The position numbers were made by a program, and so were the translations under genes. 64,000 nt of DNA. Origin: Candidatus Heimdallarchaeota archaeon (GTDB lineage: Archaea > Asgardarchaeota > Heimdallarchaeia > Heimdallarchaeales > Heimdallarchaeaceae). This document shows positions 9,001-36,665 of the stretch, piece after piece. The notes under the pieces were generated by a model that saw only the letters and a list, made by a program, of their open reading frames with translations, had not been told where the DNA came from and made no database searches. The stretch covers positions 192,001 through 256,000 of the forward strand of contig JAHLWR010000001.1 of NCBI GenBank assembly GCA_019057815.1, read 5' to 3'. Numbering within the stretch: position 1 is the stretch's first letter; every line of letters starts with the position of its first letter.

Positions 9001-12000
9001 AACAAGAACTATTAGATTTTATTTCCAATACTACAGACATTATTAAAGTCCAATTTAGCCTTTCTACTCCCATTATCTTAAGCTCTGATGATTCGGTTCT
9101 TACTTTAGATTCGGATGAAATTGTTTTCAATATTGGAGAACATACATTCTCTTATGACAGACAGTTACAAAAACTACGTTTGTATTATACCGATAAAAGA
9201 GATGAAGAAGAGATTTCTATTCAACTCGCCACTCAAGTTATAAGTCATAGAGATGCATATTCAATACATAAAAGCTATCATAAAATTGGTCAAGTAGGTG
9301 GTTTTGCCATCTATGACATAAACAAAATCCAACAAATATCTGAAGGAACGATAGTAGCTCCCAGTCATGTCTCTCTTGGACTTTTTGACTATATCAGCAA
9401 TATATTAAAACCAGTTTTAGGAACTAAATTAACTACCGTTGAAGGAATAGAATCTTCAATTAAAGCTTGGAAGAACGGTCGTACACCACCAAAATATATT
9501 GTTGTCCCTGGACCAGATAGGGATATTGAATTACCTGAACCTGTTGATGGGAATGATCCTAATCATGAGAATCCTGAAGAGGACCTACCTCCTGGTACTA
9601 CAGAAGAATCCTTTGAAGGAAATACAAATGGTGTTGCCGCTGATGTTGAGATTGACCCTGAACAAGTATTAATCGATACTATAGTTACTAGTCTTAATGG
9701 TATAGCTTCTGAATTGCAAAAAGACCCTCTAGATATCTCTGCGGGAGTGATTAGTTGGGCTTTGGACCTCATGGATGCTGACCCTGATGAGATTCTTGAT
9801 AAATTAAATGACGCACAATTCAACTATCTCGCCAATGCTTGTGTGTGGTTTTCTAATCTCTGGAACACTATTATGAACTTCTTTGAAAATCTTGGTAAAG
9901 AAATCTGGGAATTTATGAAAATGTTAGCTCAGATATATATCAAGATTATTAGTATTCAAGCAGGCATTATAATGGATCTTTTCAGAGTTTTCCTTTTATT
10001 TATCTTTTCAATTATTTTTGGAACAAATGTGGGATTACATGATACTTCTGAATTGAGATATGTTTCTGGTGGAGATTATATTTTCGATGAGGTAACAGCT
10101 CAAAACTTCCCCCATGTCTACAAACTTGACCACGTTATAGATGTTGCAACTGGTAAAACAGACCTTGAAGGAGAATTAACAGACGAAGAAATAGAAGAAC
10201 GAGCTAAGATTGATGTCCAACAAGGACAAGGAAACGATGCTAATCCAAATTCTGTTAAAAATGTCTTTTTGGAAATAGGTATTGAGAACAGCGATGAGGT
10301 AACAGATTTATTTTTTGGCAAATCAAAATGGGTTCATTCTGTTGAAGATGGAGATGAATGGGATCATTATTTTGGTCTGCGTAAACATCTTAGTCTCTTT
10401 GGATTAGACCTTTTCAGTGAAAACACGTTTATATTAATTTGTGAGATAGTTATTGGTATACTACCTATTACCGCAATAATCCAAGACACTAAAGATTCTA
10501 TCCTTGAGCCTATGAAATTCTTCCGAATATTCGCAAGAATTATGATACCTTTAGATATTACAGAACTATTTGGTAACGTTCTTGCACAAGTTTTTGGAGG
10601 AATGAAGGATTGGTGTGCTGGAACAGGATTAGGTAAAGCTCTCGGAGGAATAAGAGATTTTATTAAGAATATTTTCAACAGAATTGGTAAGTTTCTTAAA
10701 GAAACACTTGGTCCAATTCTAAAGAAATTTGCTAAATATGGAATGATCCTATTCATAGCTTTACTCTGCTTAGTTACGGTAGTCTTGATACCCATGAGTG
10801 GGATAGTGTTACTAGGTTTAGGTACAGCTCTTCTTTTAGTCCTAGGTTTCGTGACTTTCTTAGTAGCAGCGTTTAAATTCTTGAAGACTAGAATTATGAA
10901 ACCTATTTTCGATCTAGCTATGGGGGCACTTAAACCTGTAATGGACGCTATTGGAAACCTTATTAAGAAACTCTTCAAAAGTGCGAAAAATGCTGCAGAT
11001 ATAGTTGGAGTCACGGCTGTTGCAAAAAAAACAAAAGTTGGATTCAAGGCACTTCTTACAAAAACTAAGGACCTAATTCTTGATATATTTGGATATATAT
11101 GGCAGAAAATCACCAGACTCTGGGAAATTGGCACTTGGAAACCTTGGAAAAATAAGCGTATGCCTTGGTGTATAGCTTGTTACTCTAATGCTGCTAAAAA
11201 AGTATTGAACACCCAGTTTGATGTTTTAAGAAAAGCTGATGTTAAATCTAGATATATGCAAATACTTTGGGAAAGGATAGGTGACTTAAACTGGGCTAAA
11301 TTTAATGATATGACTCCTGATGAAAAATATTTGGTTCAGGAATTTGCTAGAATTATTGAACCCGACATAATTTTGGATAATATAGATCATATAGATGGAG
11401 CTTTCAAGAAGGGAGGATTATTCTTTGATGATAATGGTGATGTAATAAGCAATCTAGACAATAATAGATGGACTAAATCTGTTGATGCATTCGCATCGAC
11501 TTGGTTTGACAGTACAGGTAATAGTATGTCTAAAGGTATTATTTTTGACTATCTTAAAAAATTACAAAAACAAATCGGAGAAAATCCTGATAAAACCGAT
11601 TTTATCGACGACTTTATTAAAAAAACTGACGATGTTGATAGTCTTAAAGCTTTATGTATGAAACCTAATCTTATAGATGATTTGCTAATGACTGGTAATG
11701 AGGTTAATGATGACTTCGTATCTATTATCAAAAAACATGCTGATGATCGTTTAGATGCACTTATAGATACAAATGGGAATTTCGCAAAAACAATTGGAGA
11801 AGAAATAACGACTAAAGAAGCTGAATCTTATGCAAGAGTTTTACTTTTCACAGCAGGTATAGATGAAGCTAGATCCATGGATAAAAGCGATTTTGAAAGA
11901 TTTCAAAAAGTTTGGATTGTATTACATGGAGAAACAGATGAATTCCGAAATCCAGTGAAATTAATAGACCCTGATAATGACTATGGTATAGGAGAGGTAG

Positions 12001-23544: not shown

Positions 23545-23865
23545 ATGACACACATAAAACCCATGTCAAACATATTAAATTTACACAATGTTATCACCTG
23601 GATGAAAACAATATTCTTAGCTTTTGAATCAGGAAAAATTGATAAAAAAAGCGTTGCAAGTAAAACTAAAATAACTTTAGCTCTACTTCACAAATTTATT
23701 CCTGAAAAAAATGAGAGAGAGAATTATGACCTAATCCTTGATTTGTGTGTCTCACTTTCAACAATAAATCGATCTCAAGGGAATTTCGAGAAATTCTATT
23801 TACAAAGTCTGAAAGTAAATTTAGAGGAAATAGAAAAATCTTTGCTAGTTGAGAAAAATGAGTAG
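23545..23865 (+). CDS. Small helical hypothetical protein overlapping the GTPase start
   Basis: 106-aa ORF whose stop overlaps the ATG of the Rab-like gene. Confidence 0.65.
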   Translation: MTHIKPMSNILNLHNVITWMKTIFLAFESGKIDKKSVASKTKITLALLHKFIPEKNERENYDLILDLCVSLSTINRSQGNFEKFYLQSLKVNLEEIEKSLLVEKNE

Positions 23866-24382
23866 AATCCAACCTGATTATAATTTCAAAATTTTGCTAT
23901 TGGGTGATGCTGCAGTAGGTAAGACATCTTTAGTTCAAAAGTTTGTCCATGATAAATTCGCTGAGTCTTATTTGATGACCATTGGTATGGAGCCTAGTGA
24001 GCGATTCGTCACCTTAAAGAATGGGACAATAGTTGCTCTCTCAATTTGGGATCTTGCGGGTCAAGAGCGCTTTAGATTTATTAGACACACGTTTTATCGA
24101 GGGGCAAAAGCAGCTCTATTAGTATTCGATTTAACACGTGATTCTACTCTAAAAAATGCTAAAAAATGGTATCAAGAATTTATTGATAATTGTGGAAAAG
24201 AAACACATACTCTTTTGATTGGTAATAAAAACGATTTACAAAATAAGATTGCTGTTTCAGATGATGAATGTCAAAAAATGAATAGTTATATTAAAAGTTA
24301 TGATTTTATAAGAACTAGCGCTTTAACAGGGGAACATGTAGAAGATGCTTTTACGAAACTAGCAGGATTACTTGTTAAGTAA
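23858..24382 (+). CDS. Rab-like small GTPase (Ras superfamily)
   Basis: G1 GDAAVGKTS, switch I TIG, G3 WDLAGQERF, G4 NKND, G5 SAL; no C-terminal Cys prenylation motif. Confidence 0.95.
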   Translation: MSRIQPDYNFKILLLGDAAVGKTSLVQKFVHDKFAESYLMTIGMEPSERFVTLKNGTIVALSIWDLAGQERFRFIRHTFYRGAKAALLVFDLTRDSTLKNAKKWYQEFIDNCGKETHTLLIGNKNDLQNKIAVSDDECQKMNSYIKSYDFIRTSALTGEHVEDAFTKLAGLLVK

Positions 24383-28140: not shown

Positions 28141-29610
28141 ATGCAATGTTTTTTAAACTTTGATTGCAAAGGATACATAGAGATACAAAGAAAAGTGGTA
28201 AAAATTACAGAAGACTACCTCCTTGCAACTGAGATGCAATTAATTTATGATAATGAAAGTGGATTTGAGCCGGTTAATGGCAATTTAAGACATTGGAAGG
28301 GTGAAGTAGGTACTGTTATAGGTACTTCAATTCCAATTTTTGCAGAAATCAAAATTCCCTCAGATTTCCCTCATCAACAACCTCTTGTCTTAATCACACC
28401 TAGAGTTAATCATCCTAATATGGAAGATGATGACTCTTTAAGTTTGCGCGTTTTAGCTCAATGGAATCAGAGTATTCATATTTATCAAGTAATAAGAGAT
28501 ATTAAACAGTTATTTATTCGCGTTCCTGCAAGACCATACAAAACTAAAAAAAGAAAACAAAGAACAGAGGGACGAAAAACGAGTTTACCGATTGCTAGAA
28601 TACCCACAGCTCGAATAAAACAAGTTTCTTTGTCTCCTCAAATCGATACAAAAAAGCAGCATGATGTTGAGAAAACAGCTATAGAAGAAGATATCCTAGA
28701 ATATCAAAAACAAATTGAGAATGTTTCGAAAGAAATTGAAAAAGAAAGAACAAGATTACTTGAAAAGCAGGGTATAGCTATTCAAAGAGGTAAATTTGAG
28801 GTTGAAATATCACAAAAAGATGTTTTGAAATCAGAAGTGTATGCGGTTCAAGAAATTTTGGAAAACTTGGAAGAAAAATTTGAGGACGGAGATTTACCAG
28901 CTATCGACTTTCTTAAATTATCTAAGAAATATTCTAGAGAAAGTTATAAAGCTGAAAAGAAACTTAGTTTCATACAGACAAGCTCAAGTAGCAGGATGGA
29001 TGAAAAGATGAGTAATAAACTTGATTTAGAAGCAGAATTATATGCTTCGATTATCACACTTGATAATTTAGCTCTAAATTACGAAAATAACGAAATAGAA
29101 TCAATACCCTACAAGAAACAACTACGTTCCTTAATTAGAAATATTTTCAAAGCTCGAATTAAACTAGAAAAAATAGGATTCAAACTTGAACATTTTATTA
29201 AACAAGAAAAGTTAGATGAAAGATGTCCAAAAGGGATAGGTCATTTGAGGATGGCAGAAGGTTTAGAAACAAAAGAAGCTATTACTATTCCATTTGATTC
29301 TTTGAAAAAACTACCTTCAAAGACAGCAGATTTCGTTTCATCAGCAATAGAGCTTATAGATCTGACTAGATTAAAATCAATAGCAAGAGCAGAACTTCTT
29401 TTAGCTGATATCGAAGAAATGATACACATCCTTAATAATTTTCCATCTACACCTAAGGATTACTGGGCTCTTGAAGATATGAAAAACTGGAAAGATGTTA
29501 TTTCAAAGTACAAACCTAGTGAAGTAATTAGTGAAAAAGATTGTGAACAACTAGAATTTCAAACATCTAGATGGCTAAATGATTTTCGAAGATTATTAAA
29601 GGAATTGTAA
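28141..29610 (+). CDS. ESCRT-I fusion protein: UEV - coiled coil - Vps23 steadiness box - Vps28
   Basis: E2 fold PSDFPHQQP...HPNMEDDDSLSL with catalytic Cys replaced by Ser; SB hairpin LEEKFEDGDL...F; Vps28 motif AELYASIITLDNL and C-terminal four-helix bundle. True start probably near 28195-28204. Confidence 0.88.
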   Translation: MQCFLNFDCKGYIEIQRKVVKITEDYLLATEMQLIYDNESGFEPVNGNLRHWKGEVGTVIGTSIPIFAEIKIPSDFPHQQPLVLITPRVNHPNMEDDDSLSLRVLAQWNQSIHIYQVIRDIKQLFIRVPARPYKTKKRKQRTEGRKTSLPIARIPTARIKQVSLSPQIDTKKQHDVEKTAIEEDILEYQKQIENVSKEIEKERTRLLEKQGIAIQRGKFEVEISQKDVLKSEVYAVQEILENLEEKFEDGDLPAIDFLKLSKKYSRESYKAEKKLSFIQTSSSSRMDEKMSNKLDLEAELYASIITLDNLALNYENNEIESIPYKKQLRSLIRNIFKARIKLEKIGFKLEHFIKQEKLDERCPKGIGHLRMAEGLETKEAITIPFDSLKKLPSKTADFVSSAIELIDLTRLKSIARAELLLADIEEMIHILNNFPSTPKDYWALEDMKNWKDVISKYKPSEVISEKDCEQLEFQTSRWLNDFRRLLKEL

Positions 29611-29674: not shown

Positions 29675-29989
29675 GTGAATTCTGTGGCTCGACAGAAATC
29701 ATTAGATACGTTATTTGTGAATATTAGAAAAACGCTATTCGAACTAATAAACATGATTGAGATCAAAATAGATGTAGGATACATTTTAGAGGAAATTGAG
29801 GAAGTTAAGCATCAAATAGTAAAACTTGGTGGGGGGAGAAACGAGCTAATAAACGACATCGAAAAGACAAACATAGCATTATATAGGAAATATGAAAGCA
29901 AACTAGCTTCATTTATTCCAAAAAAGGAAGCATATAATTTAATCAACAAAATTGAAAATTGGCTAAAAGAATTACTGCAACTAGTGTGA
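29675..29989 (+). CDS. Stand-alone Vps28 C-terminal-domain-like four-helix protein (putative)
   Basis: By-eye alignment to the Vps28 CTD of the upstream gene: ELIN/ELID, IEEVKH/IEEMIH, I.KKE...L.....WLKE / I.EKD...L.....WLND. Confidence 0.6.
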   Translation: MNSVARQKSLDTLFVNIRKTLFELINMIEIKIDVGYILEEIEEVKHQIVKLGGGRNELINDIEKTNIALYRKYESKLASFIPKKEAYNLINKIENWLKELLQLV

Positions 29990-32930: not shown

Positions 32931-33593
32931 CTATTTTTTGTCAGAATTAGACACTTTTTTACGCAAACCCTCAAGTTCTGCTTCTAGCTCAGAAGTATCA
33001 TCTTCCTCCTTAGCAGCTCCTGAAGGAGTTGCAGGAAGACCAGAAAGATCAGGAAGGGATGTTGTAGTGCCTAGTTCCATTTCTGCTTCAAGTTGTGCTA
33101 ATTGATCATCAATTGCATTATCATCTTCAATGCCTAAAATTCCATCGGAAAGGGCAGAATCGGTCAACGTTTCAGTCATCATTTCAAGCTTATCGCGCTG
33201 AGTGATAACTTTGTCCATTACTTGCTCAGCCTTCTCTGGTGATATTTGTGTAAATTGTTGGTCAACAATTTTAGTACCTATATCCATAGCTTTAACAGTA
33301 TCAACAGTAGATTTGGCAGTTTGAATACTATCCATCTGAGCTTGAAGATTCATAAGCATATTATGAACGGTGTTTAAACGCTTGGTATAAACGGTCCTAC
33401 GTTTAAGAGCCTGTCTAGCACCGGACTTATTACCTGCTTGGAGCATTTTAGAAGCAAGAACTTTCTGTTCATCAGCTTGTCTTTCAAGATTGCGACCTTC
33501 ATGTTCATATTTATTTATTTGAGCTTTTAGAGTTGCAAGAGCTCCAGAATCTTCTTTTCTACTATCCCCAAATAACCAATTTTTCAGTCCCAC
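32931..33593 (-). CDS. ESCRT-III, Vps20/32/60 (Snf7) class
   Basis: N-terminal amphipathic GLKNWLFG, GNKSGARQALKRR, acidic C-terminus with LPDL and ELEAELEGL MIM-like motifs. Confidence 0.92.
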   Translation of the reverse strand: MGLKNWLFGDSRKEDSGALATLKAQINKYEHEGRNLERQADEQKVLASKMLQAGNKSGARQALKRRTVYTKRLNTVHNMLMNLQAQMDSIQTAKSTVDTVKAMDIGTKIVDQQFTQISPEKAEQVMDKVITQRDKLEMMTETLTDSALSDGILGIEDDNAIDDQLAQLEAEMELGTTTSLPDLSGLPATPSGAAKEEDDTSELEAELEGLRKKVSNSDKK

Positions 33594-33606
33594 GACATTT
33601 CACCTT

Positions 33607-34218
33607 TTATTCTTCTTTCTTTCTTAATTTTTGGATTTCAGCTTCTAAATCATCAGTCTCTACAACACCAACAGTTGGTAATCCTGCTTGAGTTGATACA
33701 CCCAGTTCTACAGCAGTTTGTTCTATTAATCTATCGACTTCTACAGGATCTGTGTCAGAAACCAATAAATCGTCTATTCCGTCTTCTAATGTTCCAGTAC
33801 TCTCTTCAATTCCATCAATTGACGCTTCCATATCTTGTATGACTCTGTCTAAATCGGGAATTTGTAATTGAGCATTTGCTGAACGCAAAGCATCTGCGAC
33901 ACCATGCATTTCTTCAGCCATACTAGCAGCTGAATCCGCGCGCTCTAATTTAAAAATCAAACCATTTATTCTTGAAACTAATTTTTGATATCCTAACTCC
34001 CATTTCCTACTACGAACGATGTCTGTTGCAAATAAACGTGCTCCTTCTATGTCTCCCCTCTGAATAGATTGTTTCATTTTTAGTTGCATTTTGGATTCAT
34101 CACGCTCAAGTTTTCTTTGCGCTCTTTCTAACCTTCTAACAGTTAAACGAAGGTTAACAATGTTGTCTCTACTTGATTTTGATGTACCTAGAAGCCAGCC
34201 CATAAAATTTCGGAACAA
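33607..34218 (-). CDS. ESCRT-III, Vps2/24/46 class
   Basis: KLERDESKMQLKMKQSIQRGDIEGARLFATDIVRSR; C-terminal MIM1-like DDLEAEIQKLRK. Confidence 0.92.
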   Translation of the reverse strand: MFRNFMGWLLGTSKSSRDNIVNLRLTVRRLERAQRKLERDESKMQLKMKQSIQRGDIEGARLFATDIVRSRKWELGYQKLVSRINGLIFKLERADSAASMAEEMHGVADALRSANAQLQIPDLDRVIQDMEASIDGIEESTGTLEDGIDDLLVSDTDPVEVDRLIEQTAVELGVSTQAGLPTVGVVETDDLEAEIQKLRKKEE

Positions 34219-34451: not shown

Positions 34452-34784
34452 ATGTTGTTGAATAAGAGAATGGTATTCAAAACTCTTTTAATTCTTGGTA
34501 TTATGGGTATTATAACCTTAACTGCTACTACTGTATTCGCACAAGAGGATAATGATACTGTTACAGTTACAGAAGATACTTCTGGACTAAAATATATAGG
34601 AGCTGCTATTGCAGTATCTTTTGCCGGTATTGGAGCTTCAATAGGAATGGCAATGGCAGGTAGTGCAGCTATAGGGGCCATCGTCGAGAAACCAGAGCTC
34701 TTTGGAAAAGTTTTCTTGTTTGTAGTGCTTATTGAAGCTGTAGCCATCTACGGTCTATTAGCAGCTATTCTTATGGTTCTCTAA
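34452..34784 (+). CDS. atpK: A/V-type ATPase proteolipid subunit K (c)
   Basis: GAAIAVSFAGIGASIG...EKPELFGK...LIEAVAIYGLL with conserved Glu; signal-like N-terminal extension. Confidence 0.93.
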   Translation: MLLNKRMVFKTLLILGIMGIITLTATTVFAQEDNDTVTVTEDTSGLKYIGAAIAVSFAGIGASIGMAMAGSAAIGAIVEKPELFGKVFLFVVLIEAVAIYGLLAAILMVL

Positions 34785-34818: not shown

Positions 34819-35202
34819 GTGATTAAAATGAATAAAGAAGAGCGTCCAATGCAATCCCCCGCTTCAATGAAACTGAGATCCTTGATAGATTTGGTTAAAT
34901 TACTTATTTCTACTGCCCGACCCGGAGAAAGATCAGGTGGTTACCTGGGGTACTATGGTGATAGTGATAGATCAATTTACTTTCTAATAAATACAACTTT
35001 AGGTTATTACGAACTTAATGCTCTACCTTTTGTTGTCTGGGTAGAAGAATCTGAAAAACCTACTAATGCGTTTCTTAGGTATCAAACTTCGCCATCCGAA
35101 AAACTAGAGTTTTCTGATGATGCAACAGACCCTAAATGGTTTACACTTCCTATCATCAAATTTGAAGAAATGCCAAAGTACTTAAGAGTCTGGGAACAAT
35201 AA
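34819..35202 (+). CDS. Conserved archaeal hypothetical protein
   Basis: 127-aa ORF downstream of atpK; resembles small uncharacterised TACK/Asgard proteins (SLIDLVKL...FLRY). Confidence 0.65.
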   Translation: MIKMNKEERPMQSPASMKLRSLIDLVKLLISTARPGERSGGYLGYYGDSDRSIYFLINTTLGYYELNALPFVVWVEESEKPTNAFLRYQTSPSEKLEFSDDATDPKWFTLPIIKFEEMPKYLRVWEQ

Positions 35203-35246: not shown

Positions 35247-36665
35247 TTAATACCAATCATCTTCATAACGAGTATCGTATTTATCAGCTTTTGCTCTAAC
35301 TTCTTCAATGTTGGTCTTAATCTTACTATACTCTCGTTTTAATTTGTTCATCAACCCATCGTAACCTTTAGTACTTGGATACCCAGATTTTATTGAATCA
35401 CGAAATGTTTGCATTTTCCTTTCGACTGCGAAGAGCTTATCTAAAAGCTTATCCAGGGTGAAATCTAACCCTTCTCGCCAGTAGTATTCCCTTTTAATTT
35501 CACGTTTGTTCAAAACTTTTTTCTTGAGAATTATTATATGTTTTTGTATATTGTTTTTCAATTCATTGATAGTTAAAGATCTCTGTTGTATGTCTTCAAT
35601 TATAGAAGTTTTCTTAATAGCATACTCAATATATTCATCTATTATTTTGAAATAGAATTGAAATTGATATAAGCTTTCATTGCTACCAAATAGAAGATAA
35701 GAATCGTTGCTTGTTTTTATCCTTAAAGTCTTCCCAATCAATAGTTTATAGGAATATTTCTTGCTAACCAAGTATAAAAGACTTATAGTTTCTCTTAATT
35801 TCAATCTGACATCTATTAATCCTTTTTCTCTAATAAGATATATACTCTTACTTGTTAGAACCACTAAGTACTTTTTAGGAAGATTTCCATTTTTCCTTAT
35901 CCACAATCTAGGAATAATAGAGATCATCTGTTCTCCTTCAACTTCAGGTAAATAAGGTTGTATTTTCTCTAGTAAATTAAATTGATATTTAACATAAGCA
36001 ATTTTTTGATTCAAAGAACAGAAATCGTCCTCCATCTCATTTGAGTTAGTTTCAAGAATCTTTTCCAGTAAAAGGTATCTTCCTTCAAGCAATGATAGAA
36101 TTTCTTCTGCTCTTTCCAAGTTGTCTAAATCTGAGTGCCTTAAGAAACCAATTGTATGAAGTCTTTCATCAAGCATTGAAAAAGTATTATTTTCAAATTT
36201 TATAATATTATCAATGAATATTGATATTTTACCATCTAAGAGAACTAAATTATTTTCTATGTGAGGAAACAGCATTATCTTTGATTGTCTCACTGTAAAA
36301 GTGGTTTCTACTAAATCATGATAACGCTGAGTTAACCCCCAAACATGAGCCATTTTTTTATTAAGTTTATCAATAGCTGTGAATATTAAATGTGGCATTT
36401 CTTGGTGATATAGTAAGCCATCTACAACATCTGGAGATTTACACCAGTCACATCTATACACAGTTTCATTTTTTGAATAAGTAGTTTCACTTTTACAAGT
36501 TGGACAGGTAGATTCGAAAACATCCTCATCACATTCGTCACAATGATAAACTGTATTAGTGATAACTACGTGTTTAAGACACAACTTACGTTTACACGAT
36601 TTACAGTAATAATGAGCTGGACTTACACAAGAACTACAACTAGTCACTACCGGCAGAGTGCTCAC
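35247..36665 (-). CDS. Zn-finger (B-box-like plus CxxC ribbons) - coiled coil - PH-like - steadiness-box-like hairpin protein
   Basis: CSSC-x7-CKSC-x4-CLKH, then CDEC, CPTC, CDWC; helical stalk; KYLVVLTSKSIYLIREKG PH-like strands; C-terminal hairpin. Confidence 0.7.
   Translation of the reverse strand: MSTLPVVTSCSSCVSPAHYYCKSCKRKLCLKHVVITNTVYHCDECDEDVFESTCPTCKSETTYSKNETVYRCDWCKSPDVVDGLLYHQEMPHLIFTAIDKLNKKMAHVWGLTQRYHDLVETTFTVRQSKIMLFPHIENNLVLLDGKISIFIDNIIKFENNTFSMLDERLHTIGFLRHSDLDNLERAEEILSLLEGRYLLLEKILETNSNEMEDDFCSLNQKIAYVKYQFNLLEKIQPYLPEVEGEQMISIIPRLWIRKNGNLPKKYLVVLTSKSIYLIREKGLIDVRLKLRETISLLYLVSKKYSYKLLIGKTLRIKTSNDSYLLFGSNESLYQFQFYFKIIDEYIEYAIKKTSIIEDIQQRSLTINELKNNIQKHIIILKKKVLNKREIKREYYWREGLDFTLDKLLDKLFAVERKMQTFRDSIKSGYPSTKGYDGLMNKLKREYSKIKTNIEEVRAKADKYDTRYEDDWY

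What the first reader, a model, noticed from the sequence alone, without database searches (positions are those of the whole stretch)
35247..36665. Candidate missing ESCRT-I subunit/cargo adaptor: Zn fingers - coiled coil - PH-like - steadiness-box-like hairpin
Seen: B-box-like C2-C2-CxxH plus three more CxxC, a long helical stalk and a PH-like block (35821-35877). The C-terminal segment MQTFRDSIKSGYPSTKGYDGLMNKLKREYSKIKTNI (35414-35307) aligns without gaps to both ESCRT-I hairpins of 28141-29610 (LENLEEKFEDGDLPAIDFLKLSKKYSRESYKAEKKL), sharing the turn position, an aromatic, R and K. Established: Vps37 donates the third hairpin, and Vps36 GLUE (PH plus NZF fingers) binds lipid and ubiquitin; neither is otherwise present in this cluster. 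Inference: one protein ~1 kb from the cluster may combine Vps37-like assembly with GLUE/ESCRT-0-like membrane and Ub recognition. Caveat: similar short hairpins (SHOCT-like) are common.
Basis: partly seen in the sequence, partly recalled or inferred. Interest (0 to 1): 0.82.

Follow-up and report, generated by a model that had tools for sequence, protein, structure and literature searches.

The report
Known Asgard zinc-PH ESCRT adaptor protein
This gene is real and well conserved, but it is the Heimdall-group copy of an Asgard-only protein (zinc fingers, helical bundle, PH domain, C-terminal helical hairpin) that a 2024 paper had already catalogued and proposed as a membrane-binding partner of the ESCRT-I complex, so it is a good but not new candidate, and its binding is still untested.

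Summary
The ORF at 35247-36665 (minus strand, 472 aa) exists as described. It has 12 conserved zinc ligands, a helical domain, a confidently modelled PH fold and a C-terminal helix-turn-helix hairpin.

A profile of the family matches 234 of 251 Asgard genomes. Outside the Heimdall class, 30 of 33 informative loci have an ESCRT-III gene convergent within 2.2 kb.

In Heimdallarchaeaceae, including this gene, that signature is degenerate: it is undetectable from the subfamily alone, and weak but above shuffles against the distant members' profile.

Makarova et al. 2024 (PMC10936438) already describe this architecture as Znr_CC_PH_SB (cog.011556), a "likely ESCRT-I component". [quoted passage not shown]

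The scan noted the same family on other genomes (e1-5718914 and others).

In passing: one lineage fuses the Zn-helix-PH module to an EAP30 (Vps22/36-type) domain, which gives a Vps36-like architecture.

The parts
35247..36665 (-). Whole ORF, 472 aa. It belongs to the Asgard Zn-ribbon / coiled-coil / PH / steadiness-box family (asCOG cog.006820 / cog.011556).
   Evidence: ORF and translation. Orthologues of 466-497 aa were found in 24 of 24 same-family genomes. The family profile matches 234 of 251 genomes of the phylum.
36420..36665 (-). Residues 1-82: triple zinc module. Ligand pattern CxxC-x7-CxxC-x4-C-x2-[HC]-x9-CxxC-x8-CxxC-x14-CxxC. The first eight ligands have B-box1/ZZ-like spacing and the last four form a zinc ribbon.
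   Evidence: 11 invariant Cys across the phylum. The domain model has pLDDT 81. The best fold matches are B-box and ZZ domains at Z 3.2-3.4. Pfam zf-B_box is sub-threshold in 11 of 27 members.
35952..36419 (-). Residues 83-238: helical domain of four helices. It contains the phylum-wide invariant pair R126 and E137 (motif R-x7-[FY]-P-x-[IV]-E) at its only non-helical break.
   Evidence: DSSP of the model, with pLDDT about 90. Invariant columns.
35616..35951 (-). Residues 239-350: PH-fold domain of the GRAM / bacterial-PH / GLUE-like kind. The beta1-beta2 loop is rich in basic residues (R253, R256, K257, K264, K265).
   Evidence: Foldseek and VIA matches to PH domains. The family profile hits bacterial PH structures 3dcx and 3hsa at E 5e-4. 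Pfam bPH_3 matches 8, GRAM 6 and Vps36_ESCRT-II 4 of 27 members.
35508..35615 (-). Residues 351-386: connecting helices (345-351, 353-361, 367-384).
   Evidence: Model secondary structure, pLDDT 70-86.
35271..35507 (-). Residues 387-465: C-terminal helical hairpin (helix 387-426, turn 427-434, helix 435-465). It is a diverged steadiness-box-type element with the subfamily motif RG[IY]DGL.
   Evidence: Model. hhalign of the family C-terminus against the fusion's Vps23 box gives 96%, and against the Vps28 N-terminal hairpin 92%. The subfamily alone gives about 1% or less. Shuffle test. The family HMM hits window fusion residues 185-284 and 291-349.
28141..29610 (+). UEV-Vps23-Vps28 fusion (ESCRT-I). 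It carries the two steadiness-box hairpins to which the family's C-terminus is homologous, and is the presumed docking partner (inference).
   Evidence: Pfam VPS28, UQ_con, Vps23_core and UEV. It is the orthologue of HeimAB125_14070, which was studied by Hatano et al. 2022.
32931..34218 (-). Two ESCRT-III genes, 1.0 kb from the ORF. atpK (34452-34784) and a conserved 127-aa ORF (34819-35202) lie in between.
   Evidence: ORFs. The published AB_125 neighbourhood has the same order. The order is also conserved in G012 and G005.

Best explanation
The gene encodes the Heimdallarchaeaceae orthologue of the Asgard-specific Zn-ribbon / coiled-coil / PH / steadiness-box protein. This is Znr_CC_PH_SB, cog.011556. 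The Heimdall branch is catalogued separately as cog.006820.

Shown here: three zinc sites, a helical bundle, a PH fold and a C-terminal hairpin. The family is near-universal in the Asgard genomes sampled. Its C-terminal roughly 100 residues are homologous to the stalk-plus-steadiness-box part of Vps23 and to the Vps28 N-terminal hairpin. The gene is kept next to ESCRT genes in most lineages.

Inferred mechanism: the protein is an upstream ESCRT adaptor. The PH domain, with its basic beta1-beta2 loop, holds it on the membrane. The zinc module and helical domain recognise a still unknown partner or cargo. The C-terminal hairpin packs with the steadiness-box hairpins of other ESCRT subunits (here the UEV-Vps23-Vps28 fusion; in other lineages also a box-bearing Vps22). 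In this way it would play the assembly part that Vps37 plays in eukaryotes and the membrane part that Vps36-GLUE plays.

In this subfamily the box signature has drifted to a different conserved motif, so the docking step is the least certain one.
For: Architecture and conservation.

PH fold.

One family across the phylum: a Heimdall-order profile matches 234 of 251 genomes, with E 1e-30 to 1e-54 for Loki- and Thor-type ORFs of 500-730 aa covering Zn, helices and PH. The Loki-type members are from Promethearchaeia MAGs such as Loki_b31 and Loki_b32.

Steadiness-box homology:
- hhalign 96.2% (E 2.7e-9) to the fusion's Vps23 box and 91.6% to its Vps28 hairpin, with negative controls against the UEV domain and the Vps28 C-terminal domain.
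- Pfam Vps23_core in 8 of 27 members, above the curated cut-off in one (26.9 bits).
- PDB profile hits to yeast Vps23 (2p22, 2f66, 2caz) and TSG101 (6vme).
- The family HMM hits the window's own fusion at residues 185-284 and 291-349.
- Window-specific signal of 12.4 bits, reached by 0 of 2000 shuffles.

Linkage:
- The ORF is 1.0 kb from ESCRT-III in the window.
- The arrangement is the same in G012 and similar in G005, and in family f2 the gene is 1.25 kb from Vps23/Vps28 genes.
- Outside the Heimdall class, 30 of 33 informative loci have a convergent ESCRT-III gene within 2.2 kb, 24 of them within 200 bp.

Rosetta-stone fusion: the Zn-helix-PH module is fused to an EAP30 domain in one genus.

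Literature: the same role is proposed in PMC10936438. The AB_125 orthologue appears in identical synteny. Asgard archaea lack Vps37, and an undetermined factor may bridge ESCRT-I and ESCRT-II (PMC9192718).
Against: The Heimdallarchaeaceae C-terminus alone shows no profile similarity to the steadiness boxes of its own fusion protein (hhalign probability 0.3-1.4%). Its similarity to the other members' C-terminus is only weak (21%, E 0.001).

The conserved neighbour is ESCRT-III, not ESCRT-I.

Inside the Heimdall class the linkage is often lost. The gene is 30-34 kb away in the two complete g4 genomes, and on other contigs in family f3, including a 10-contig genome.

Hatano et al. found that the Heimdall fusion dimerises and that Odin Vps23 fills the third headpiece position as a homodimer, so a separate third-hairpin subunit may not be needed.

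Helical hairpins of this size match many unrelated structures.

No lipid, ubiquitin or protein binding has been measured.
Confidence: 0.6

Rival explanations
1. The protein is an ESCRT-III-proximal membrane recruiter and does not enter ESCRT-I. It would work like CdvA of TACK archaea, sitting on the membrane through its PH domain and recruiting or templating ESCRT-III/Vps4 directly, with the hairpin used for self-assembly.
For: The near-invariant neighbour is an ESCRT-III gene, tail to tail and often 1-5 bp away. ESCRT-I genes are usually further off. The hairpin superposes on the S. islandicus CdvA filament hairpin (9s9g, Z 8.9, rmsd 1.3 over 72 residues). A CdvA chain appears among weak sequence hits (9s9i, E 0.086). 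Makarova et al. note that the CdvA hairpin and the steadiness box are similar.
Against: Sequence similarity of the family hairpin is strongest to the Vps23 and Vps28 boxes. Convergent genes are not co-transcribed, so adjacency does not indicate which ESCRT layer the protein touches. The hairpin fold matches are generic: Z about 9 for many unrelated hairpins, below the level the tool calls meaningful for helical proteins.
Confidence: 0.2
2. In Heimdallarchaeaceae the protein has drifted away from ESCRT. The hairpin would no longer be a working steadiness box, and the Zn-helix-PH module would serve another membrane process, for example with small GTPases.
For: The box signature is degenerate and replaced by a different invariant motif (RG[IY]DGL). 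Linkage is loosened in this class: atpK and a 127-aa ORF are inserted here, the gene is 30-34 kb away in g4, and it is unlinked in f3 and f6. In f3 and f6 the gene lies 144-385 bp from Rab-like GTPase genes (L015, L060, L088). The helices followed by a PH domain resemble DH-PH tandems of Rho-GEFs in outline (Trio Z 11.7 over 163 residues but rmsd 5.9).
Against: The gene is still within 1-4 kb of the ESCRT cluster in three of four genera of this family with an informative locus, and next to ESCRT-I genes in f2. The hairpin is kept, is under purifying selection, and aligns in register with the family box. Small-GTPase genes are very numerous in Asgard genomes (general knowledge), so adjacency in 3 loci is weak evidence. 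The DH-PH matches rest mostly on the PH domain plus one helix, and Z is below the tool's caution level for helical proteins.
Confidence: 0.15
3. The protein is a TRIM-like B-box/coiled-coil ubiquitin E3 ligase, or a ubiquitin receptor, of the neighbouring ubiquitin system.
For: The first eight ligands have B-box1-like spacing. Pfam B-box matches are sub-threshold in about half of the members, and the best fold matches are B-box and ZZ domains. Ubiquitin and E1 genes lie in the same cluster.
Against: There is no RING or other known E2-binding domain. All B-box matches are below Pfam's cut-off and Z is 3.4 or less. The family is equally present in lineages that lack ubiquitin genes nearby; for Thorarchaeota, Hatano et al. 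report no true ubiquitin. Another follow-up in this scan (e1-5718914) also found no support for an E3 role.
Confidence: 0.05

Closest known systems
[quoted passage not shown]
   Same: The domain order is the same: three zinc modules, helical region, PH, C-terminal hairpin. It is Asgard-only. The gene sits in ESCRT neighbourhoods. Its synteny (aminotransferase / this gene / arCOG04275 ORF / AtpK / ESCRT-III) is identical to the published Heimdallarchaeota AB_125 entry. It is homologous by profile to the Loki-type members.
   Different: The published table places the Heimdall orthologue in a separate COG, with no steadiness box named and no ESCRT flag. Here the two COGs behave as one collinear family. 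The Heimdall hairpin aligns in register with the box, but its signature is degenerate.
Eukaryotic Vps37 (Pfam Mod_r), the third hairpin and stalk subunit of ESCRT-I
   Same: A helix followed by a steadiness-box-type hairpin at the C-terminus, related to Vps23 in sequence. Asgard archaea otherwise lack a Vps37.
   Different: There is no Mod_r match for this protein. Vps37 has no zinc module and no PH domain. Incorporation into a headpiece has not been shown.
Eukaryotic Vps36 GLUE domain (PH fold with inserted NZF fingers, followed by EAP30 winged helices)
   Same: A PH fold and zinc fingers occur in one ESCRT-linked protein. Pfam Vps36_ESCRT-II matches are weak in 4 of 27 members, and reach 22 bits (cut-off 24.1) in the EAP30-fused relative.
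   Different: The zinc module is N-terminal and separated from the PH domain by about 150 helical residues, not inserted in it. The knuckle spacing of 14 differs from the 10 I recall for NZF fingers (from memory, not tested). This protein has no EAP30 domain.
CdvA of TACK archaea (membrane-binding recruiter of ESCRT-III with a steadiness-box-like hairpin)
   Same: Membrane-binding module, then coiled coil, then hairpin. The gene lies next to ESCRT-III. The hairpin superposes on CdvA (Z 8.9, rmsd 1.3).
   Different: CdvA uses a PRC barrel, not a PH domain, has no zinc module, and binds the winged helix of CdvB through a C-terminal peptide. No Pfam CdvA match was seen for this family among the families listed.

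Membership tests
Znr_CC_PH_SB / cog.011556 + cog.006820 (Makarova 2024) | Three N-terminal zinc-binding modules | tested here: met
   Six ligand pairs. 11 Cys are invariant across 22-28 sequences of the phylum, and position 32 is H or C.
Znr_CC_PH_SB / cog.011556 + cog.006820 (Makarova 2024) | Helical / coiled-coil region and PH domain | tested here: met
   The model has pLDDT 86 with helices 83-238 and a beta sandwich at 247-343. PH matches: Foldseek E 9e-6, VIA Z 9-10. Profile hits to bacterial PH structures.
Znr_CC_PH_SB / cog.011556 + cog.006820 (Makarova 2024) | C-terminal steadiness box | tested here: inconclusive
   Clear at family level: hhalign 96% and 92%, Vps23_core in 8 of 27 members. 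For this subfamily alone, hhalign gives about 1% or less against the box and 21% against the other members' C-terminus, though in the same register. The window scores 12.4 bits, reached by 0 of 2000 shuffles.
Znr_CC_PH_SB / cog.011556 + cog.006820 (Makarova 2024) | Asgard-specific, in ESCRT neighbourhoods, homologous to named members | tested here: met
   Only 17 representative clusters were found among 1.84 billion proteins; the named ones bear Heimdall-group labels, with one 'Thorarchaeota' label. The profile matches 234 of 251 genomes of the phylum. ESCRT linkage is shown. Synteny is the same as the published AB_125 cog.006820 entry. The Lokiarchaeum GC14_75 protein itself was not available for a direct comparison.
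Vps37 (Pfam Mod_r, PF07200) | Match to the Mod_r model | tested here: not met
   At E up to 1, Pfam lists only four unrelated weak families for this protein. Mod_r is not among the 25 families most often matched by 27 members.
Vps37 (Pfam Mod_r, PF07200) | Forms the three-hairpin ESCRT-I headpiece with Vps23 and Vps28 | not testable with these tools
   This needs binding or structural experiments. See Tried and rejected for the complex job.
Vps36 GLUE domain | Split PH domain with zinc fingers inserted, followed by EAP30 winged helices | tested here: not met
   The PH domain is continuous (247-343) and the zinc module is N-terminal (10-75). There is no EAP30 match in this protein. A relative in one genus does carry EAP30.
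B-box zinc finger (PF00643) | Match to the B-box model / cross-brace two-zinc fold | tested here: inconclusive
   Sub-threshold hits in 13 of 22 and 11 of 27 members (best E 3.5e-4), and none for this protein. The top VIA matches are B-box and ZZ domains, but at Z 3.2-3.4. Foldseek finds only zinc ribbons and the PML B1-box, at E above 0.09.
   2 of 27 members match at E 0.071 or weaker, against 8 of 27 for Vps23_core. The G-x-I-x4-[YF] turn motif resembles both.

The most novel reading that the evidence does not exclude
The Zn-helix-PH module is a portable membrane/cargo 'head' of the Asgard ESCRT system. In most lineages it is attached to a steadiness-box hairpin. In one genus (G088 and G080; G096 partial) it is attached to an EAP30 winged-helix tandem instead, which gives PH + zinc fingers + EAP30. 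That is the domain content of eukaryotic Vps36, which Asgard archaea are said to lack. The most novel reading not excluded is that eukaryotic Vps36-GLUE descends from, or was assembled in the same way as, such a fusion. On that reading the present family would be the archaeal source of the GLUE PH domain.
Probability: 0.12. Interest if true: 0.75.

Novelty: already known. Interest (0 to 1): 0.27.

Why it matters
Asgard ESCRT-I lacks a Vps37, and what links ubiquitin and ESCRT-I to membranes and to ESCRT-II in these archaea is unresolved (PMC9192718). This family is the published candidate for that role (PMC10936438).

For this window, the useful results are as follows:
- The Heimdall branch (cog.006820) and the Loki/Thor branch (cog.011556) are one collinear family.
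- The family is near-universal in the Asgard genomes sampled and sits tightly next to ESCRT-III.
- The steadiness box is well preserved in most lineages but degenerate in Heimdallarchaeaceae, the group for which recombinant ESCRT-I reagents already exist. Anyone testing the idea should therefore also use a Loki- or Thor-type protein.

Tried and rejected
- Complex prediction: the fusion's residues 170-380 were folded with this protein's residues 345-472, both as alignments. The result was 'no answer' (score 0.00, mark 0.32). This is no evidence for or against binding.
Synteny was obtained from the genome search and the fetch from genomes instead.
A Loki-only alignment worked, but Lokiarchaeum GC14_75 itself was not among the named records, so the published example protein was not compared directly.
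- Single-sequence searches of this protein against Pfam and PDB gave only noise. The 'Ubiquitin_4' hit at residues 361-407 lies in helices and is rejected.
- ESCRT-I headpiece chains are not among the 50 best VIA rows for the whole model, where generic hairpins fill the list. No third structure job was available to fold the hairpin alone.
- The DH-PH (Rho-GEF) resemblance is rejected as homology. The aligned parts are mainly the PH domain plus one helix, the rmsd is high for the long alignments, and Z is below the tool's caution level for helical proteins.
- The 104-aa ORF at 29675-29989 showed no significant similarity to the steadiness boxes or to the Vps28 C-terminal domain with a 3-sequence profile. 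I had provisionally called it box-like, and that label is withdrawn.
Full report
**What is there.** The finding's coordinates are exactly one ORF on the minus strand, 35247-36665, 472 aa with a GTG start. It lies 1.0 kb from a complete ubiquitin-ESCRT cluster. That cluster holds ubiquitin, E1, a UEV-Vps23-Vps28 fusion, a 104-aa ORF, an EAP30/Vps22-like gene, Vps25, Vps4 and two ESCRT-III genes (Pfam; ORFs). Between the ORF and ESCRT-III lie atpK and a conserved 127-aa ORF. By itself the protein matches nothing significant in Pfam or in PDB sequences.

**Conservation.** Close homologues of 466-494 aa, 50-94% identical, come from Heimdallarchaeaceae MAGs. A search of 1.84 billion representatives found only 17 clusters. 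A profile of the close set found the gene in 24 of 24 genomes of the same family, with weaker matches in the same order. A broader profile (A2, 22 sequences of the order) then matched 234 of 251 genomes sampled across the phylum. These matches were typically one ORF of 500-730 aa at E 1e-30 to 1e-54, covering the zinc, helical and PH parts. The long forms of 660-730 aa belong to Promethearchaeia (Loki) MAGs. Across this whole set the invariant columns are 11 cysteines plus R126 and E137, and position 32 is H or C.

**Structure.** AlphaFold2 with the 22-row alignment gave mean pLDDT 86.3 and pTM 0.68. The model has these parts:
- small beta elements around the zinc ligands (residues 1-82);
- four helices (83-105, 107-127, 135-171, 182-238);
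- a seven-stranded sandwich capped by a helix (247-343);
- short helices (345-384);
- a hairpin of two long helices (387-426 and 435-465).

The sandwich is a PH fold. Foldseek gives Lam6 PH-like at E 9e-6. VIA gives P-Rex2 PH at Z 10.2, MTMR2 GRAM-PH at Z 9.6, and TAPP1 PH at Z 9.0 with rmsd 2.6 over 98 of 103 residues. The family's PH profile hits two bacterial PH-domain structures at E 5e-4 and 1e-3. Individual members hit Pfam bPH_3 (8 of 27), GRAM (6) and Vps36_ESCRT-II (4), all below threshold.

The zinc module was modelled alone (pLDDT 81). Its best matches are B-box and ZZ domains, but only at Z 3.2-3.4. Pfam zf-B_box is sub-threshold in about half of the members. 'B-box-like' is therefore a fair description and no more.

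**The hairpin.** Taken alone, this is 6 identities in 36. A profile of the Heimdallarchaeaceae C-terminus shows no similarity to the fusion's steadiness boxes (hhalign probability 0.3-1.4%).

The pan-Asgard C-terminal profile behaves differently. It aligns to the fusion's Vps23 box with 96.2% probability (E 2.7e-9) and to its Vps28 N-terminal hairpin with 91.6%. Controls against the UEV domain and the Vps28 C-terminal domain are negative. The same holds when all Heimdallarchaeaceae rows are removed (95.7% and 90.4%).

Further support:
- Pfam Vps23_core matches 8 of 27 members, above the curated cut-off in one of them.
- The C-terminal profile hits yeast Vps23 core structures (2p22, 2f66, 2caz) and TSG101 (6vme) among coiled-coil noise.
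- The family HMM hits the window's own fusion at 185-284 and 291-349.
- The window's last 88 residues score 12.4 bits against a profile built only from non-Heimdall members, and no shuffle of 2000 reaches this. Shuffling removes heptad periodicity, so the significance is somewhat overstated.

My reading is that the family ends in a genuine steadiness-box-type element. In Heimdallarchaeaceae it has kept the hairpin but replaced the G-x-I-x4-Y turn signature with an invariant RG[IY]DGL motif.

**Genomic linkage.**
- In the same family, the arrangement of this window recurs in G012, and with a 3.9 kb gap in G005. In the two complete genomes of genus g4, ESCRT-III is 30-34 kb away.
- In family f2 the gene is 1.25 kb from split Vps23 and Vps28 genes.
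- In families f3 and f6 it is unlinked, and three loci have Rab-like GTPase genes 144-385 bp away.
- Outside the Heimdall class the picture is uniform. In 30 of 33 informative loci, each from a different genome, an ESCRT-III gene lies convergent within 2.2 kb of the gene's 3' end. In 24 of these the gap is under 200 bp, often 1-5 bp, frequently followed by Vps4, Vps25 and an EAP30 gene.

**What is already known.** Makarova et al. (mBio 2024, PMC10936438) describe 'Znr_PH_CC_SB' (cog.011556). They describe it as three Zn ribbons, a PH domain, a coiled coil and a steadiness box, absent in eukaryotes, likely ancestral in Asgardarchaeota, 'a likely ESCRT-I component', with the PH domain expected to be membrane associated. 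Their example in Lokiarchaeum GC14_75 is 650 aa and lies one gene from Vps20.

[quoted passage not shown] This is gene for gene the arrangement in this window. The entry names no steadiness box and carries no ESCRT flag.

Hatano et al. (PMC9192718) report that Asgard archaea lack Vps37, that the Heimdall fusion dimerises, that Odin Vps23 dimer plus Vps28 forms the trimer, and that an undetermined factor may bridge ESCRT-I and ESCRT-II.

The increment here is twofold: the two COGs are one family, and the Heimdall hairpin is a degenerate box.

**Mechanism.** What is shown: the domain content, the homology of the C-terminus to ESCRT-I assembly elements, and conserved proximity to ESCRT genes. What is inferred: the PH domain binds membrane, the hairpin packs with box-bearing subunits, and the zinc/helical head recognises something upstream.

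The main rival is a CdvA-like role directly at ESCRT-III, suggested by the choice of neighbour gene. A second rival is functional drift in this class. An E3-ligase reading has little support.

A complex prediction of the hairpin with the fusion's box region returned no verdict and is not used as evidence.

**Side observation.** In one genus (G088 and G080 full length; G096 matched only over residues 1-481) the Zn-helix-PH part (family HMM positions 8-401) is followed not by the hairpin but by an EAP30 domain (Pfam E 1.8e-11). Its PH region scores 22 bits on Pfam Vps36_ESCRT-II (cut-off 24.1). This fusion ties the module to ESCRT-II-type assembly as well. It has the domain content of Vps36, which Asgard archaea are reported to lack. 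It may or may not be what the 2024 paper calls cog.002441.

**Verdict.** Interest is low to moderate.

Noticed in passing
L061:9501-11306 (+) = G088:C138:83400-85202; also G080:C95:9025-10839 and G096:C86:4159-5613: A 601-aa protein whose first ~400 residues are the same Zn-helix-PH module (family HMM positions 8-401). Its C-terminus is an EAP30/Vps22-36 winged-helix domain (Pfam E 1.8e-11) instead of the hairpin, and its PH region scores 22 bits on Pfam Vps36_ESCRT-II. This is a Vps36-like domain content. Among 251 genomes it was found full length only in this genus. A separate Vps22-like gene, Vps28, UEV-Vps23 and ESCRT-III lie in the same locus.
   Followed up: partly
window 36255-36290 (residues 126-137): Apart from the zinc ligands, the only phylum-wide invariant residues are R126 and E137. 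They lie in a motif R-x7-[FY]-P-x-[IV]-E at the single break of the helical domain. The function is unknown; it may be a conserved binding site or a salt bridge.
   Followed up: no
window 35250-35270 and the C-termini of 48 family members: Most members end with an aromatic residue within the last 1-5 positions: Thor-type ...R-W, Loki-type R[YF][FY][ST], Heimdall FDDMWE[IF], and here EDDWY. This may be a short C-terminal docking motif.
   Followed up: no
L015:11495-12091; L060:7223-8884 and 11160-11723; the Rab-like ORF 144 bp from the family gene L088:5702-7183: In Heimdall-class lineages where the gene is not linked to ESCRT (f3, f6), Rab-like small-GTPase genes lie 144-385 bp away. The window itself has a Rab-like gene at 23849-24382, beside the ESCRT cluster.
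   Followed up: no
window 29675-29989 (+): A 104-aa ORF inside the ESCRT cluster is conserved in G012 and G005. With a 3-sequence profile it shows no significant similarity to the steadiness boxes or to the Vps28 C-terminal domain, so its nature is open.
   Followed up: partly
window 34819-35202 (+): A 127-aa ORF with no Pfam match is conserved between this gene and atpK in Heimdallarchaeaceae (G012, G005). It is listed as cog.001682/arCOG04275 'uncharacterized' in the published AB_125 neighbourhood.
   Followed up: no
L051:5580-6317, L064:5532-6296, L066:13638-14429, L067:14113-14925, L068:13539-14297: In Thor-type compact clusters (EAP30 / Vps25 / Vps4 / ESCRT-III / this family), the EAP30 protein also gives weak hits to the window's Vps23-Vps28 fusion. 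This fits the published 'Vps22 fused to a steadiness box'. In those clusters the two box-bearing proteins are Vps22 and this family's member.
   Followed up: no
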